Source: Abditibacterium sp. (GTDB lineage: Bacteria; Armatimonadota; Abditibacteriia; Abditibacteriales; Abditibacteriaceae). From it: a DNA stretch of 64,000 nucleotides. The notes under the pieces were generated by a model that worked only from the letters and a program-made list of their open reading frames with translations, did no database searches and was not told the DNA's origin. Within the stretch, counting starts at the first letter, position 1, and each line of letters starts with the position of its first letter. The translations under genes were made by a program, and so were the position numbers. Below are positions 12,831-18,723 of this stretch, in pieces. Location of the stretch: assembly GCA_965199495.1 (NCBI GenBank), contig CBDASK010000003.1, positions 1,920,001 through 1,984,000 on the forward strand, in the 5' to 3' direction.

Positions 12831-15023
12831 GTGACCGTCGCACCTTCCACCGAAACCGTTAGTGAATCGCCCGAATTGCTCGCCGAATTGGAGCGCGTTT
12901 TCGGTTACACCGCGTTTCGCCCGCATCAGGAAGACGCGGTGCGCGCGGCGCTGGCGGGGCGCGATTGTCTGGTCGTGATGCCGACGGGCGCGGGCAAATC
13001 TTTAACGTTTCAGTTGCCCGCCGCGATCACGCCGGGCGTCACCATCGTGATTTCGCCGCTCATCGCTTTGATGCGCGACCAAATTATCGCGTTGCACGAG
13101 CGCACATCGTTTGTCGAAGAAGGCGCGTATTATCTCAATTCGTCGCAGTCGCAGGACGAACAACGCGACGTTTTAAGTTTGGTGCGCGCGGGCCGCGTGA
13201 AACTGCTTTACATCACGCCCGAACGATTGCGTTCGGGCGCGTTTTTGGATTTGCTGCAAAGCGTTAAAATCGCCAGATTAGTTGTGGACGAGGCGCATTG
13301 TATTTCGGAATGGGGCCACGATTTTCGGCCCGATTATCTGGCGATTAAAGATGTCGTCGCGACGTTGGGCGATGTGCCGCGTTTCGCAGTGACGGCAACA
13401 GCCACGCGGCGCGTGCAAGGCTCGATTGCCGAAAATCTGGGCATGCGCGAGCCGGAAATTATCGTCGGTGGATTTGACCGGCCCAACTTGCATTGGTCGG
13501 TCGTGCGCTGTAAAAACGACGCGGAGCGCGATAACAAATTATTCAAAGCTCTGCCGAAATTGATGTCGCGCGGCGGGAGCGGTTTGATTTATGTTTCGAC
13601 GCGCAAAGTCTGCGAAAAAATCGGCGAGTTGGCGCTCAACGCTTTGGCGCCGCTCGGCATTCGCGCGGGCTGTTACCACGCGGGCATGGAGAACGAATCG
13701 CGCTCGAAAATGCAGGAGGCGTGGTTGCGCGGCGACATTCCGGTTTTGGTGGCGACGAACGCGTTTGGCATGGGCATTGACAAGCCCGACGTGCGATTTG
13801 TCGTGCATTACGGCTATCCCGAATCGCCCGAATCGTATTATCAGGAAGCGGGCCGCGCCGGGCGCGACGGCAAAAAGGCGCGCGTTTTCGTGTTGAGCGT
13901 GCCCGCCGCCGACCGCAAACTGCGCGAATGGTTCATCACCAACGAAGCCATCGAAGCCGACGATTTTCAGAAAGTCGTGCAGAAATTGGGACGATTGGCG
14001 GGCGGCGAAGCGGTGCGCGTGCCGAGTTATTGGTGGGATCAGGAATTGGCGTGGCGCGAACCCAAACCGCGCGTGGTTTTGTCGCGCCTCGAACGCGCCG
14101 GTTTGCTCGAACGCTTGAGCGAAACGCCCGAAGGCATCGAACTGCGGCCAACCGTGAAATCCATTCCCGCCAATCAGATGGGCGAACTGCGGCGCGGATT
14201 GGAGCGCGATCTCAACGAACGATTCGAGCGCCTCAACGAAATGGCGGGTTACGTCAAAACCATCGAATGTCGGCGCGCGGCGCTGATCAATTATTTCGGC
14301 GACGCCGACGAATTTATCGGCGGCGGCGAAGGTTGCTGCGACAACTGCGACGCGCGCGCCAAAGGCATTGACCTGAGCGCGCGAAGTCCCAAAATGGCCC
14401 AGGGCCGAGTCGAGGCGCCCTCGCAAATCGGCGATATTTACGAACTGTTGCAGGCGCTCGATGCTTTATGGCCGAGCGTGGGCAAAACGCGACTGGCAAA
14501 AATTCTGCGCGGCTCCAACGCCGCCGATATGCAGCGCTATCTGGACGCGCCGGTTTATGGCGCTTTGCGCGGTGTTTCGGTCGCCAAAACCAACACGTTT
14601 TTGGAAGAATTACTCGACCGCGCGCTCTTGCATCAGGGCGACGAAGACGAATATTATGTCGTCAACGTGACGCGCGCCGGACGCGAGGCGTGGGAAGCGC
14701 GCGCCGGTGTGGACGATTTGGAATTGCCCGGACAAACCCGGCGTGGCTCCAGTTCGGCGCGGCGCGCCAGTTCGTTCGCGAATGATGACGACGACACCCT
14801 CGATGGCGTGGGCGGCGCGCTCTTCGAGAAGCTGCGCAACTGGCGCAGCGCGCGCGCGCGCGAAGAAAGCGTGCCGCCTTATATCGTGTTCGGCGACAAA
14901 GTTCTGCGCGAAATCGCGCGCCAACGCCCGTCGGATTTAGACGAATTGGGCGAAATTAGCGGTATCGGCCCGGCGAAATTAGATAAATACGGCGAGTTAG
15001 TTTTGGAATTATTGAGTGAATAA
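12831..15023 (+). CDS. recQ: RecQ-family DNA helicase with RQC and HRDC domains
   Basis: MPTGAGKSL, VDEAHCISEWGHDFRP, ATNAFGMGIDKPDVR, QEAGRAGRDG, CCDNC, VPPYIVFGD. Confidence 0.92.
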   Translation: MTVAPSTETVSESPELLAELERVFGYTAFRPHQEDAVRAALAGRDCLVVMPTGAGKSLTFQLPAAITPGVTIVISPLIALMRDQIIALHERTSFVEEGAYYLNSSQSQDEQRDVLSLVRAGRVKLLYITPERLRSGAFLDLLQSVKIARLVVDEAHCISEWGHDFRPDYLAIKDVVATLGDVPRFAVTATATRRVQGSIAENLGMREPEIIVGGFDRPNLHWSVVRCKNDAERDNKLFKALPKLMSRGGSGLIYVSTRKVCEKIGELALNALAPLGIRAGCYHAGMENESRSKMQEAWLRGDIPVLVATNAFGMGIDKPDVRFVVHYGYPESPESYYQEAGRAGRDGKKARVFVLSVPAADRKLREWFITNEAIEADDFQKVVQKLGRLAGGEAVRVPSYWWDQELAWREPKPRVVLSRLERAGLLERLSETPEGIELRPTVKSIPANQMGELRRGLERDLNERFERLNEMAGYVKTIECRRAALINYFGDADEFIGGGEGCCDNCDARAKGIDLSARSPKMAQGRVEAPSQIGDIYELLQALDALWPSVGKTRLAKILRGSNAADMQRYLDAPVYGALRGVSVAKTNTFLEELLDRALLHQGDEDEYYVVNVTRAGREAWEARAGVDDLELPGQTRRGSSSARRASSFANDDDDTLDGVGGALFEKLRNWRSARAREESVPPYIVFGDKVLREIARQRPSDLDELGEISGIGPAKLDKYGELVLELLSE

Positions 15024-15067
15024 ACTGGACGCTTGGAACACGGTTAAGAGCCTTGTATGTTAATAGT

Positions 15068-15246
15068 AGGGGCAAGAGTGACGCCGATAAGAGCCTGAGC
15101 TGCTTGCAAGCTGTTGGATAGAATTGCGCCTCTTGTCCCTGTTCTTTTTTGTCTTTTCAAGCCGGACAGTATCTTGAGCCGTTGCGAGTTGTGACTTGCA
15201 ACAGAGTTCGCATTGACAAGGCTGGCTGCAAGATAAAAACAAGAAC
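15068..15246 (+). ncRNA. IS110 bridge RNA (predicted; ends approximate)
   Basis: Stem AGGGGCAAGAG/CTCTTGTCCCT encloses TAAGAGCCT (15088-15096) and TTGGATAG (15114-15121), matching the flanks; second loop has ACAGTATCT (15166-15174) and ACAAG (15216-15220), matching the donor junction. Confidence 0.88.
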
Positions 15247-15278
15247 CCCTCGGTTTCCCTTTGTTTGAGGAGAATCTC

Positions 15279-16283
15279 ATGTTTTTAGGAATAGACGTTT
15301 CCAAAGCGACTCTCGATGCCGCGTTTCTGTCCACCCCAGACGCCGCCAAAACGCGCCACAAAGTCTTCGCCAACACAGAGCAAGGCCATCAACTTCTGCT
15401 CGACTGGTTGCAAGAGCTGCCTTCTACCAGTGCAGAAGCGCCCACATCCGCGCCCACGCTTCACGCGTGTTTAGAAGCCACCGGCATCTACGGCGATGCC
15501 CTTGCGCGCGCGCTCCACCAAGCCGGGCATCTTGTCTCGGTTGTGAACCCCGCTGCCGTGCGTGCCTTTGCCAAAAGCCAGCTCAAGCGCACCAAAACCG
15601 ACAAAGCCGATGCGCAACTCATCGCCCGCTTTTGCGCTTTGCACCGGCCCGCGCCCTGGAAGGCGCCCGCGCCGGAGATCGAGCATCTGCAAGCTCTGGT
15701 GCGCCGCATCGAGACGCTCCAGGAGATGAAGCAGATGGAAGCCAACCGCCTGGAAGTGACCTCCTGTGAGGTCGTTCAACACTCGTTGCGCTCTCACATC
15801 GACTATCTCGAACGGGAGATCGGGGCGACCAAAGACCAGATCAAAGAGCACATCCAGGCGCATCCTGAGTTGAACGAATCCGTGCGTTTGCTCTGCTCGA
15901 TTCCTGGCATCGCTGCGGCCACAGCCGCATTGATCCTGGCCGAGTTGGGCGAGATCGCGCAGTTCGAGAACGCGCGCCAGGTCGCGGCGTTTGCCGGATT
16001 AGCGCCGTGTTTGCGCGAATCGGGTTCGAGCGTGCGCGGCAAGCCGCGCCTGTCTAAGGTCGGTTCGCCGCGTCTGCGCAAAGCGCTCTTTTATCCGGCG
16101 ATGACGGCACTGCGCTGCAATCCCGTGATTAGCGAGTTGAAGCAACGTTTGACCCAGGCTGGCAAGTGTAAAATGCTGATCTTGGGTGCTGCGATGCGCA
16201 AGTTGCTGGTGTTGGCCTATGGCGTGCTCAAGTCCGGTCAGCCCTTCGATGCCGAGTTTTGTGCGCAGGGGCTGAAAAATTAA
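15279..16283 (+). CDS. IS110-family recombinase/transposase
   Basis: 334 aa after SD GAGGAG; LGIDVSK, LEATG, KTDKADA (DEDD), SIPGI, ESGSS serine motif, AAMRKLL. Confidence 0.96.
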   Translation: MFLGIDVSKATLDAAFLSTPDAAKTRHKVFANTEQGHQLLLDWLQELPSTSAEAPTSAPTLHACLEATGIYGDALARALHQAGHLVSVVNPAAVRAFAKSQLKRTKTDKADAQLIARFCALHRPAPWKAPAPEIEHLQALVRRIETLQEMKQMEANRLEVTSCEVVQHSLRSHIDYLEREIGATKDQIKEHIQAHPELNESVRLLCSIPGIAAATAALILAELGEIAQFENARQVAAFAGLAPCLRESGSSVRGKPRLSKVGSPRLRKALFYPAMTALRCNPVISELKQRLTQAGKCKMLILGAAMRKLLVLAYGVLKSGQPFDAEFCAQGLKN

Positions 16284-16294
16284 CGCCAAAACTC

Positions 16295-16315
16295 TTGACG
16301 GCCAACACAGTATCT
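16295..16315 (+). promoter_or_regulatory. -35 half of the IS110 circle-junction promoter
   Basis: TTGACG (16295-16300) lies exactly 17 nt from TATGTT (15056-15061) once the ends are joined at the CT core. Confidence 0.8.
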
Positions 16316-16352
16316 ATCCAAATAGGAAAACCAGAATGCGACTGAGCGATGG

Positions 16353-16430
16353 GAGCGGGGCTGGCGCACCCTTCCAATCTGGCGTAAGTCCGAGGAAAGT
16401 CCGCCGATTGGAAGAGTGCGTCAGCCCCGC
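16353..16430. repeat. REP-like palindrome inside the MITE
   Basis: GCGGGGCTGGCGCACCCTTCCAATC...GATTGGAAGAGTGCGTCAGCCCCGC; perfect version at 61188-61276. Confidence 0.8.
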
Positions 16431-16505
16431 ATCTTCAATACTTCGCGTCCTATTCGGATAGGTTCTAAATCGCGCGCTGTCAGACGTTGGTAAAGGAGAA
16501 TCCAA

Positions 16506-17381
16506 ATGCGACATTTTTTCACTTGTTGTGCCGTTACGCTGCTGACCACTCTGGCGGCTCATGCAGCCACGCCGACGGCGGCGTTACAATTAATGCCCGC
16601 CAAAGCCATTAGTTTGCGCTGGCAGAAACTGCCAACCGACACTGATAACGCGGTTTGGCTACATATCTATTGCGTGCCCAAAAGCCGCGACCCCGAATTG
16701 AAAAACATGGGCGTGGACGAAACTGGCCCGATTACACGCGCAAATATTACAAATGGCCCGTCGTTGGCGTCGTCGCCGTTCTGGCTCGATGTTTTCGCCG
16801 ATGCCAACGCCAAGCGGCGCTTGAATTCGGTCAAATTCGAGGAAGGTCACGATGTGCAAGACATCACATTGCGCTGGCTCGAACCCAAATCGCGGCGCGG
16901 CCCCGTCGTGCTGATGAAGTTTGGTTACACGCATTGGTATGAATGGCAAACCTTTACTTTCGCGCAGGGCTGGACGAAACCAGCGCACGCGCAAACCTTT
17001 TTCTATGGCGGCGAAGGCGAAATTTATAACGATCTCCGTTTCGACCGCACCGACGCGCAGGGCCATTTAATCGTCGTCGAAGATGAAGGTCTGGAAAACA
17101 ACAAAGAGCGCACCAATATCTATCGCTGGAATGGGCGCGAGTGGGACGATAAAACATTGAAATATTTCGTGGTCGGCGCTTCGGTCAAAACCAAAAGCGC
17201 CGCCGACGAGATATTGCGCAAGCGTGGTTACGGCGAAGTTTTGCGCTCGAACGATTATCCTAAATTAAGTCCGGGCTATTGGATTTGGATTACAGGACGG
17301 TTTCGCACCAAAGCCGAAGCCGACGAGATCGTCGCGCATCTGGATAAAAATACGCCCGCCGTCGTGCGGCTGGCGCGCTGA
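16506..17381 (+). CDS. Secreted hypothetical protein with possible C-terminal SPOR-like region
   Basis: SD AAGGAG; signal peptide ending AAHA; C-terminal YPKLSPGYWIWITGRFRTKAEA. Confidence 0.6.
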   Translation: MRHFFTCCAVTLLTTLAAHAATPTAALQLMPAKAISLRWQKLPTDTDNAVWLHIYCVPKSRDPELKNMGVDETGPITRANITNGPSLASSPFWLDVFADANAKRRLNSVKFEEGHDVQDITLRWLEPKSRRGPVVLMKFGYTHWYEWQTFTFAQGWTKPAHAQTFFYGGEGEIYNDLRFDRTDAQGHLIVVEDEGLENNKERTNIYRWNGREWDDKTLKYFVVGASVKTKSAADEILRKRGYGEVLRSNDYPKLSPGYWIWITGRFRTKAEADEIVAHLDKNTPAVVRLAR

Positions 17382-17404
17382 ATCGGCGCATCCTCTTTAT
17401 TTTT

Positions 17405-17944
17405 ATGCCCGAATTTCCCATTGTTTATCGCCACGATTGCCAAATTACGCCCGCGCAAGACGAAGCGCTGCGCGCGCTTTTTCGTGTTTGTTTCAAACGT
17501 GAACTGGCTTATTTGGAACATCAACGGTTTTTTCGCGAACTGCCGCCGCATCGCTGGATGATTTTCGACGAAAACGAAAACGTCGTGGCGCATATCGCGG
17601 GTTACGACAAAATTTTGGGCACCGACGACGGATTATTACCCGTCATCGGCATCGCCGAAGTTTGCGTCGCGCCCAATTATCGCGGGCGTGGATTTGTGCG
17701 GGCGCTACTCGCGCAGATTCACGATTGGGCGCGCGCACAAAGATTTTCGCACTCGTTACTTTTCGGTTCACACGGCATTTACGGCAGTAGCGGCTACGAG
17801 AAAATTGATAATCCGATTCGCGCGCTCGATTATCGAACCAGCGAATGGGAAACGCAACCGCTCGAATACGCCCTCGTGCGCGCGCTAAACGACGACGCAG
17901 TTTGGCCGAGCGGAACGATTGATTTGCGCGGGCCACATTTTTGA
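17405..17944 (+). CDS. GNAT-family N-acetyltransferase
   Basis: IAEVCVAPNYRGRGFVRALL acetyl-CoA motif A. Confidence 0.85.
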   Translation: MPEFPIVYRHDCQITPAQDEALRALFRVCFKRELAYLEHQRFFRELPPHRWMIFDENENVVAHIAGYDKILGTDDGLLPVIGIAEVCVAPNYRGRGFVRALLAQIHDWARAQRFSHSLLFGSHGIYGSSGYEKIDNPIRALDYRTSEWETQPLEYALVRALNDDAVWPSGTIDLRGPHF

Positions 17945-17952
17945 AAACGATA

Positions 17953-18723
17953 ATGTCTCAACAAAAACCAACGCTAATTTTGCCGCCGCGTTACACCGAC
18001 GATTCCAACGCGTTGTGGCGCGCGGCGGTGCGGCTCAATTGGGAAATCGAGCGTCTGCAAAGCTGGCGCGTGCCCGACGAATTCAAGCCGTCGCTTCCGC
18101 TCGCGATTTACGGCGAATCGCTGTGGGCGAACTTCGTCGCTCATCAATTGGCTGGCGAACTCTACGAGCCGCCGCTCGATTGGCTCGCGAAATTGCCGCC
18201 ACAATTTTTGGGGCGTCGCGTCGAGTTTTGCACGCTGTTGGAGGCGCGCGAAAAGTCGTTTCCTCTCTTTGTCAAACCAGCGGGCGAAAAAGAATTCGAG
18301 GCGCGCGTTTACCAATCCGCCGCCGATTTGCCGCCCGACGAAGATCGCCAAGAATCGCAGTGGGTTTTGGTGTCCGCGATTGTCGAATGGGAGGTCGAAT
18401 ATCGCTGTTTTCTGCTCGAAGGCCGCGTTTTGGCCGCGTCATCTTACTGGCGCGGCGAAGTCTCGACGCGGAATGAAACCGGCGCTTATCCGTCGCCGCC
18501 CGATGAGTTGCAGGCAGCCATCGCACTCGCCGAAAAAGTCGCGCGCTGCAAACCCAATTTTGGCGCTCACGGAGTTGTCGTTGATGTCGGCATAATTCAC
18601 GATTTCGGTTGGGCCGTTGTCGAGGCGAATCCGGCGTTTGGTTCGGGCATTTACGGATGCGACGCCGAAAAAGTTTTGGAAGTCGTTTCGCATTGCTTTT
18701 ACCAATCTCATTGCTTTTACTAA
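17953..18723 (+). CDS. ATP-grasp protein (R2K/DUF4343-like)
   Basis: LFVKPA..KEF, EYRCFLL, VVDVG...WAVVEANPAFGSGIYG. Confidence 0.78.
   Translation: MSQQKPTLILPPRYTDDSNALWRAAVRLNWEIERLQSWRVPDEFKPSLPLAIYGESLWANFVAHQLAGELYEPPLDWLAKLPPQFLGRRVEFCTLLEAREKSFPLFVKPAGEKEFEARVYQSAADLPPDEDRQESQWVLVSAIVEWEVEYRCFLLEGRVLAASSYWRGEVSTRNETGAYPSPPDELQAAIALAEKVARCKPNFGAHGVVVDVGIIHDFGWAVVEANPAFGSGIYGCDAEKVLEVVSHCFYQSHCFY

What the first reader, a model, noticed from the sequence alone, without database searches (positions are those of the whole stretch)
15045..16321. IS110 element with a fully readable bridge RNA: target guides, donor guides and junction promoter all match
Seen in sequence: the flanks rebuild the pre-insertion site TAAGAGC-CT-ATCCAA. 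The non-coding left end contains TAAGAGCCT (15088-15096), identical to the left target plus core, and TTGGATAG (15114-15121), the reverse complement of core plus right target. Both lie inside a stem closed by 15068-15078/15130-15140. A second loop has ACAGTATCT (15166-15174) and ACAAG (15216-15220), matching the end junction ACAGTAT-CT-TGTAT. Joining the ends creates TTGACG-N17-TATGTT firing into this RNA. Established: this is the architecture of IS621-type bridge recombinases, and the donor matches the IS621 donor as I recall it. Inference: an intact, probably active RNA-guided recombinase with its own natural target specificity.
Basis: partly seen in the sequence, partly recalled or inferred. 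Interest (0 to 1): 0.88.

Follow-up and report, generated by a model that had tools for sequence, protein, structure and literature searches.

The report
RNA-guided IS110 element targeting IS5 ends
This is an intact, probably active jumping gene of the known IS621 bridge-RNA type whose guide RNA spells the tip of another jumping gene (an IS5-type element), so it lands inside those tips; the mechanism is known, only this choice of target was not found in print.

Summary
Confirmed. Every motif lies where stated. The 1,262-bp element encodes an intact IS110 recombinase (best solved relative IS621, E 2e-72; all five catalytic residues). Its left end scores 72 bits against a bridge-RNA model built without it. 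Relatives keep the donor but change guides together with their targets (24 of 39 against 7 of 1396 cross-pairs). New here: the target is the 3-bp duplication TAA plus the first bases of an IS5-family terminal inverted repeat. The window copy sits 6 bp inside a 156-bp IS5-type MITE whose ends match those of full-length IS5 elements in related genomes. Sister elements target REP ends and attC-like sites. RNA, circles and activity were not shown. The mechanism is known, and this scan has already reported IS110 elements aimed at IS3, IS6 and MITE ends in other genomes. Verdict: new member of a known kind; interest 0.3.

The parts
15045..15047 (+). TAA, left target-site duplication of the host IS5-type MITE; positions 1-3 of the IS110 target
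   Evidence: matching TAA at 16466-16468; IS5 elements with this end carry identical TWA flanks in 6 of 6 full-length cases
15048..15053 (+). First 6 bp (GAGCCT) of the host MITE's left terminal inverted repeat, ending in the CT core (15052-15053)
15054..15278 (+). Non-coding left end, encoding the predicted bridge RNA (about 15068-15245; no 5' hairpin, unlike IS621)
15056..15061 (+). -10 hexamer TATGTT of the circle-junction promoter (4 of 6 consensus)
   Evidence: function inferred from IS621
15068..15140 (+). Target-binding loop with closing stem
   Evidence: helix 1: 8 of 13 pairs with changes on both sides among 7 sequences
15088..15096 (+). Left target guide TAAGAGCCT (9 of 9 with both genomic sites)
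15115..15121 (+). Right target guide, 7 nt: 7 Watson-Crick pairs with the window site; 5 Watson-Crick plus 2 G-T with the second site
15122..15123 (+). Target-loop handshake guide AA (first base pairs with donor T7; second is mismatched, IS621 has AU)
15141..15245 (+). Donor-binding loop with closing stem
15166..15174 (+). Left donor guide ACAGTATCT (9 of 9 with the right end plus core)
15212..15220 (+). Discontinuous right donor guide (15212-15213 and 15216-15220; two bases bulged)
15221..15222 (+). Donor-loop handshake guide GC, Watson-Crick complementary to target C7 and G6
15279..16283 (+). IS110 recombinase gene, 334 aa; D6/E66/D108/D111 and S248 correspond to IS621 D11/E60/D102/D105 and S241; GAGGAG ribosome site at 15267-15272
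16284..16315 (+). Short right end: -35 hexamer TTGACG (16295-16300), left donor ACAGTAT (16307-16313), CT core (16314-16315)
16316..16326 (+). Remainder of the host MITE's 17-bp left terminal inverted repeat (ATCCAAATAGG)
   Evidence: a strain variant shares exactly this stretch and then diverges
16355..16430 (.). REP-like palindromic doublet inside the MITE (family of about 102 clusters in the genome)
16449..16468 (-). Right terminal inverted repeat of the host MITE (16449-16465) and right duplication TAA (16466-16468)

Best explanation
An autonomous IS110-group insertion sequence of the IS621 type. It leaves its site as a circle by recombination between the two CT cores. Joining the ends builds a sigma-70-like promoter that drives a bridge RNA of about 175 nt from the left end. 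The recombinase tetramer uses the RNA's donor loop to hold the circle junction and its target loop to hold TAAGAGC-CT-AT(CCA), and swaps strands at the CT cores through serine-linked intermediates. The natural target is the junction between a TAA duplication and the terminal inverted repeat of IS5-family elements and their MITEs, so the element inserts 6 bp inside an IS5 end: a repeated, intergenic, harmless landing site. Shown in sequence: ends, guides, enzyme, two matching sites, identity of the target with IS5 ends. Inferred from IS621: transcription, circles, chemistry, present activity.
For: Enzyme: PF01548 + PF02371, NF033542 above its cut-off, IS621 and ISCro4 the only solved relatives found. 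RNA: 72 bits, E about 2e-20 (rough), with a model from 22 relatives that leaves out this element and its two closest relatives; next hit in the window 5.5 bits. Guides track targets: 24 of 39 distinct element-site pairs have LTG at least 8/9 and RTG at least 4, against 7 of 1396 cross-pairs. Second identical copy in the same 11-mer. A 98-99% identical variant in another study's metagenome shares TAA-GAGC on the left and runs to 16326 on the right, diverging outside. Target identity: TWA-GAGCCTATCCnAAT occurs in 13 of 27 genomes of the family, the reversed control once; it closes 882-921-bp elements with PF13340/PF01609/NF033580 transposases and identical TWA flanks. A 59% relative in G012 sits at the same register in the end of a different IS5-type MITE, its right guide changed to match.
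Against: No RNA, circle junction or empty site was observed; only assembled contigs were available. No full-length IS5 with this end was found in this genome; its two IS5 copies have other ends. The second copy's site matches the IS5 end over 11 bases only, has no matching TAA on the far side and may be a decayed MITE or an unrelated site. Three perfect 11-mer sites are unoccupied. The same trinucleotide flanks 4 of 5 two-armed MITEs in this genome, which is weak by itself. The elements counted are related and partly copies of one another, so the counts are not independent tests. One preprint abstract argues for single-strand, copy-and-paste excision of IS621, so the form of the circle is unsettled.
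Confidence: 0.88

Rival explanations
1. Same RNA-guided mechanism, but the target is chosen as a sequence at the foot of a long DNA palindrome (REP doublet or hairpin), with the structure as a second gate as in ISPpu10; the IS5 identity is incidental.
For: Both occupied sites and all three empty perfect 11-mers are at ends of inverted repeats; both copies lie within about 40 bp of a REP doublet; the sister element in G004 inserts at REP ends in 5 of 5 copies; a structural gate is reported for ISPpu10.
Against: The 11-mer is rare by chance (0.18 expected per genome), so its sites are in inverted repeats simply because they are MITE ends. The G012 relative and the X2 variant hit IS5 ends, and no REP doublet of the searched consensus was noted in the G012 MITE. 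This reading does not exclude the best explanation.
Confidence: 0.2
2. The element is a recently silenced relic: the guides are intact but it no longer moves.
For: Only two copies; three perfect sites empty; no junction seen in contigs; the target-loop handshake is AA where most relatives have AT.
Against: The two copies are 100% identical over 1,264 bp at sites 1.2 Mb apart; reading frame, catalytic residues, ribosome site and promoter halves are intact; a variant occupies a third site.
Confidence: 0.1
3. The guide-target matches are chance, or copies of flank picked up at insertion, and target choice is made by the protein.
For: 11 of 39 relatives show LTG matches under 8/9 by my simple rule.
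Against: Shuffle probability 0.005% for both target guides; identical guides in copies at different sites that each match; RNA guidance shown by experiment for IS621.
Confidence: 0.02

Closest known systems
IS621 of Escherichia coli and ISCro4/IS622 (IS110 group, bridge recombinases; PMC11208160, PMC11208158; PDB 8wt6, 9t56)
   Same: Domain order, DEDD + serine residues, CT core, left-end bridge RNA with two loops, donor ACAGTAT-CT-TGTAT, junction promoter, discontinuous right donor guide, handshake positions.
   Different: About 46% protein identity; no 5' hairpin before the target loop (LTG at base 34 of the left end against 63); different guides; target is an IS5 end, not a REP; donor-loop handshake GC is the fully paired form that was engineered into IS621; target-loop handshake AA instead of AU.
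[quoted passage not shown]
   Same: An IS110-family element that lands inside another mobile element's terminal repeat (seen as a reference title; the paper itself was not read).
   Different: Those are IS1111-group elements with subterminal repeats and a long right end; here an IS110-group element, an IS5 end as target, and the guide also reads the host's 3-bp duplication.
ISPpu10 of Pseudomonas putida (bioRxiv 10.64898/2026.03.19.712850)
   Same: IS110 element with CT core inserting in repeated palindromic DNA.
   Different: Its gate is a short stem-loop formed with the left target; here the palindromes are 130-160 bp long and a structural requirement is untested.
ISKpn4 / ISPst6 (IS1111-attC group)
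   Same: Relatives of the window element in the same bacterial family insert at one end of attC-like sites.
   Different: Those are IS1111-group; the relatives here are IS110-group with the IS621 donor. The window element itself does not target attC.

Membership tests
IS110 family | Recombinase with N-terminal DEDD RuvC-like domain (PF01548) and C-terminal serine domain (PF02371) | tested here: met
   D6, E66, D108, D111, S248
IS110 family | Short core repeated at both ends, no terminal inverted repeats | tested here: met
   CT at both ends of both copies; no inverted repeat joining the two element ends
IS110 group (not IS1111) | Long non-coding left end, short right end, no long subterminal inverted repeats | tested here: met
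   left end 225 nt, right end 30 nt
IS621-type bridge recombinase | Left end folds into target- and donor-binding loops with conserved scaffold | tested here: met
   no Rfam family matched, the model was built here
IS621-type bridge recombinase | Four guides complementary to target and donor, covarying across relatives | tested here: met
IS621-type bridge recombinase | Promoter rebuilt across the circle junction | tested here: met
   sequence only: TTGACG-17-TATGTT, 9 of 12 consensus; absent from the linear form
IS621-type bridge recombinase | Bridge RNA is transcribed and binds the recombinase; circle forms; recombination is guide-dependent | not testable with these tools
   no RNA run listed; contigs only
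IS5-family MITE (host site) | Terminal inverted repeats shared with an autonomous IS5 element | tested here: met
   GAGCCTATCCnAATAGG shared with elements of 882-886 bp in G014, G001 and G020 that encode IS5-type transposases; none in this genome
IS5-family MITE (host site) | 3-bp TWA duplication | tested here: met
   TAA on both sides of the window MITE; 4 of 5 in this genome; 6 of 6 full-length IS5 elements
IS5-family MITE (host site) | Mobilised in trans (polymorphic empty sites) | not tested
   no second genome of the species was compared
IS5-family MITE (site of the second copy) | Two IS5-type arms with duplication | tested here: inconclusive
   one 11-base match at the foot of a long palindrome; far arm shares GAGC only and lacks TAA

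The most novel reading that the evidence does not exclude
A lineage of IS621-type elements in this bacterial family lives on the ends of other mobile DNA and has been retargeted wholesale, with an unchanged donor, between attC-like sites, IS5 terminal repeats (reading across the host's TAA duplication, so breaking the IS5 end it lands in) and GTAG-type REP ends. The window element and its REP-targeting sister differ at 6 of 7 left-guide positions in a scaffold about 75% identical, which makes the series a natural test bed for how bridge RNAs acquire new guides, and the IS5-targeting members possible brakes on IS5 spread.
Probability: 0.5. Interest if true: 0.5.

Novelty: new member of a known kind. 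Interest (0 to 1): 0.3.

Why it matters
It adds an intact bridge recombinase at about 46% identity to IS621 that uses the same donor and already carries two features that were engineered into IS621 to raise efficiency: a 7-nt right target guide fully matched to its site and a fully paired donor-loop handshake. It is therefore a sensible candidate for ortholog screens. Its target shows one mobile element using RNA to aim at the ends of another, and its close relatives give a small natural series of guide replacement. None of this changes the known mechanism.

Tried and rejected
Rfam: no match at E up to 1 in 13000-18000. DNA search of E. coli genomes with the element and of plasmids with the host repeat: no match. 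Junction pattern in viral contigs: 4 matches, all unrelated sequence without a right end. G-T wobble at target positions 12-14 as a site filter: 4 of 5 G004 insertions fit, but 104 of 133 unoccupied G004 sites fit as well, so this is no evidence; in this genome the two occupied sites are the two of five that pair at all three positions, which is too few to count. A REP-associated transposase as the source of the outer repeat: 8 PF01797 matches, none closely flanked by the REP doublet; IS5 fits instead. The three-copy IS4/5-type element and the two IS5 copies of this genome have other ends. Sequencing runs: no RNA holder listed; contigs showed no joint, which says nothing on expression or circles. 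The RNAalifold structure of the 22-sequence alignment kept only 10 donor-loop pairs, so the model's score is mostly sequence. Not in print: searches listed no paper on an IS110 element targeting IS5 ends; the 11-mer target had 0 hits in the supplements of PMC11208160 (file 2 unreadable, file 4 cut when stored; the 9-mer does occur among targets of an unrelated element). ISfinder, subscription journals and bioRxiv supplements could not be searched and may list such an element. No fold prediction was run, since sequence matches to solved structures were decisive.

Full report
Observation. The stretch lies 28 bp behind a RecQ helicase gene (12831-15023) and holds one long reading frame, 15279-16283. 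In 20,000 dinucleotide shuffles of the left end both target guides occurred together in 0.005% and the left donor guide in 0.015%; the five-base ACAAG occurred in 17.6% and counts only in context. The left end folds into two stems with internal loops that hold the guides (z = -3.2).

The enzyme. The 334-aa protein has the two IS110 domains, passes the NCBIfam cut-off for IS110 RNA-guided transposases, and its only solved relatives found are IS621 and ISCro4. D6, E66, D108, D111 and S248 align with the five residues required in IS621.

The RNA. Rfam has no match, so I built a model from 22 relatives including IS621 and leaving out this element and the G004 and G012 elements. It finds 15057-15238 at 72 bits over its whole length; the next hit in 64 kb scores 5.5. 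That model kept only 10 base pairs, so the score is mostly sequence. In a seven-sequence alignment that includes the window, 21 of 34 predicted pairs show changes on both sides, above all 500 shuffles and all slid controls; the structure was derived from these same sequences, so this is supportive and not a clean test. By IS621 numbering the right target guide is seven bases (15115-15121), the right donor guide is discontinuous (15212-15213 and 15216-15220), and the handshake guides are AA and GC. The GC pair is complementary to target positions 7 and 6, the form that improved IS621 recombination in the structure paper. The 5' hairpin of IS621 is missing: the -10 box lies just before the target-loop stem. 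The donor is the same as in two annotated IS621 records.

Do guides predict sites? The genome holds a second copy, identical over 1,264 bp, at G000:C3:733563-732300. Its site reads TAAGAGC-CT-AT, the same 11 bases; positions 12-14 pair by two G-T wobbles and one A-U. In the likely source run the element is one contig at depth 50 against 28-37 for its flanks, as expected for two copies. In a metagenome of another study a 98-99% identical variant begins at the same TAA with 47 other letters before it and ends at 16326 with 17 other letters behind; the two contigs do not overlap and could come from different copies. Of 72 loci with a transposase hit, 51 had both ends by my pattern and 39 were distinct; 28 of 39 carry a left guide matching at least 8 of 9 bases of their own site, 24 of 39 also a right guide of at least 4, against 36 and 7 of 1396 cross-pairs. 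In 31 of the 39 with an anchored right guide, positions 12-14 were Watson-Crick in 63 of 93 against 735 of 2658 in cross-pairs; two rows were mis-anchored and left in. These rows include copies and kin and are not independent.

What the target is. The window site is the left end of a 156-bp element with 17-bp inverted repeats and TAA on both sides. Four more two-armed elements of 152-164 bp with such ends are in the genome; four of the five have the same trinucleotide on both sides, and all five wrap a REP-like doublet. The end motif occurs in 13 of 27 genomes of the family, its reversed control once. Among 11 loci examined, six showed full-length elements of 882-924 bp (four with this end, two with the related G012 end), each with two overlapping frames and identical TWA flanks. 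The three whose frames I scanned match PF13340, PF01609 and NF033580, that is IS5. Three-base duplications and this size fit the IS427/IS1031 groups (passages of PMC2516522); I did not place them further. So the guide reads the IS5 duplication (positions 1-3) and the first 8-11 bases of the inverted repeat, and the element lands 6 bp inside. A 59% relative in G012 sits at the same register in a MITE of about 200 bp of another IS5 element, with its right guide changed to match. Against this: no full-length IS5 with this end was found in the window's genome, and the second copy's site is at the foot of a long palindrome with only one IS5-like arm. The 11-mer is expected 0.18 times per genome by a third-order model, so a decayed MITE is more likely than chance. 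Three perfect 11-mers are empty, all in inverted-repeat ends.

Relatives. A tree of 24 transposases, chosen by hand from the fetched loci, puts 11 elements in one clade (100/99). It holds six elements at attC-like sites, the two IS5-end elements, two G004 variants at GTAG-type REP ends and one metagenomic element; the window element is sister to the G004 variants (100/99). The inner order is not well supported and the root is the midpoint, so no order of switches is claimed. The attC and GTAG-REP labels rest on recalled motifs and on the folds, not on a library match.

Mechanism. Shown in sequence: ends, cores, guides, enzyme, matching sites, IS5 identity of the target. Inferred from IS621: circle formation, the junction promoter, RNA binding and strand exchange through phosphoserine. 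Read-through from upstream can supply the RNA in the linear state for IS621 (section 5 of PMC13626964); the co-oriented recQ gene could do so here. Whether the circle is cut out or copied is disputed (abstract only).

Papers seen. PMC11208160: passages and a supplement search. PMC11208158: passages and section 7. PMC13626964: abstract and section 5. 10.64898/2026.03.19.712850: abstract, sections 7 and 11. 10.64898/2026.08.31.748434: abstract. 10.1101/2025.05.14.653916, PMC11187229 and PMC2516522: passages. IS4321/IS5075 and IS1111-attC: reference titles and mentions only.

Verdict. A real, intact member of the IS621-type bridge recombinases. The mechanism, readable guides, long right guides and repeat targeting are in print; targeting of another element's terminal repeat is known for IS4321/IS5075, and earlier notes of this scan report IS3, IS6 and MITE ends in other genomes (unchecked; seen after I had reached the MITE reading). 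An IS5 end as target was not found in the searches named. Interest 0.3.

Noticed in passing
L005, L006, L008, L009, L027, L007, L015 (family relatives): IS110-group relatives (55-62% identity, same donor) insert at the 5' end of attC-like sites, while a more distant IS110 clade (L011, L014, L028) inserts at the 3' end of the same kind of site; attC label from recalled motifs.
   Followed up: partly
G004, L004/L026/L045/L046/L047: The sister element (about 70% protein identity) has left guide GGTGTCTCT and sits at REP doublet ends in 5 of 5 copies; 133 further perfect sites are empty.
   Followed up: yes
G000:C3:62484-62635, 1876724-1876885, 3648917-3649080, 3811051-3811203 and window 15045-16468: IS5-type MITEs here each wrap a REP doublet in their middle, of two different REP families; related MITEs in other genomes hold other palindromes.
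   Followed up: partly
G000:C3:3233484-3233529: A 46-bp near-perfect palindrome with a perfect empty target on both strands; possibly a minimal MITE.
   Followed up: no
L079 (G012:C1:6183405-6183594): A decayed left end without transposase gene or right end; its left guide TAAGAGTCT matches its flank at 8 of 9 and resembles the other end of the G012 IS5 element.
   Followed up: partly
L007 (G020): The bridge-RNA region of a relative is interrupted by what looks like another insertion sequence.
   Followed up: no
G000:C3:3106505-3106741: Remnant of an unrelated IS110 transposase (51% over 78 aa, C-terminal part only).
   Followed up: no
window 16506-17381: A 291-aa protein with a signal-peptide-like start and no Pfam match, followed by a GNAT acetyltransferase and an R2K-clade ATP-grasp protein.
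   Followed up: no
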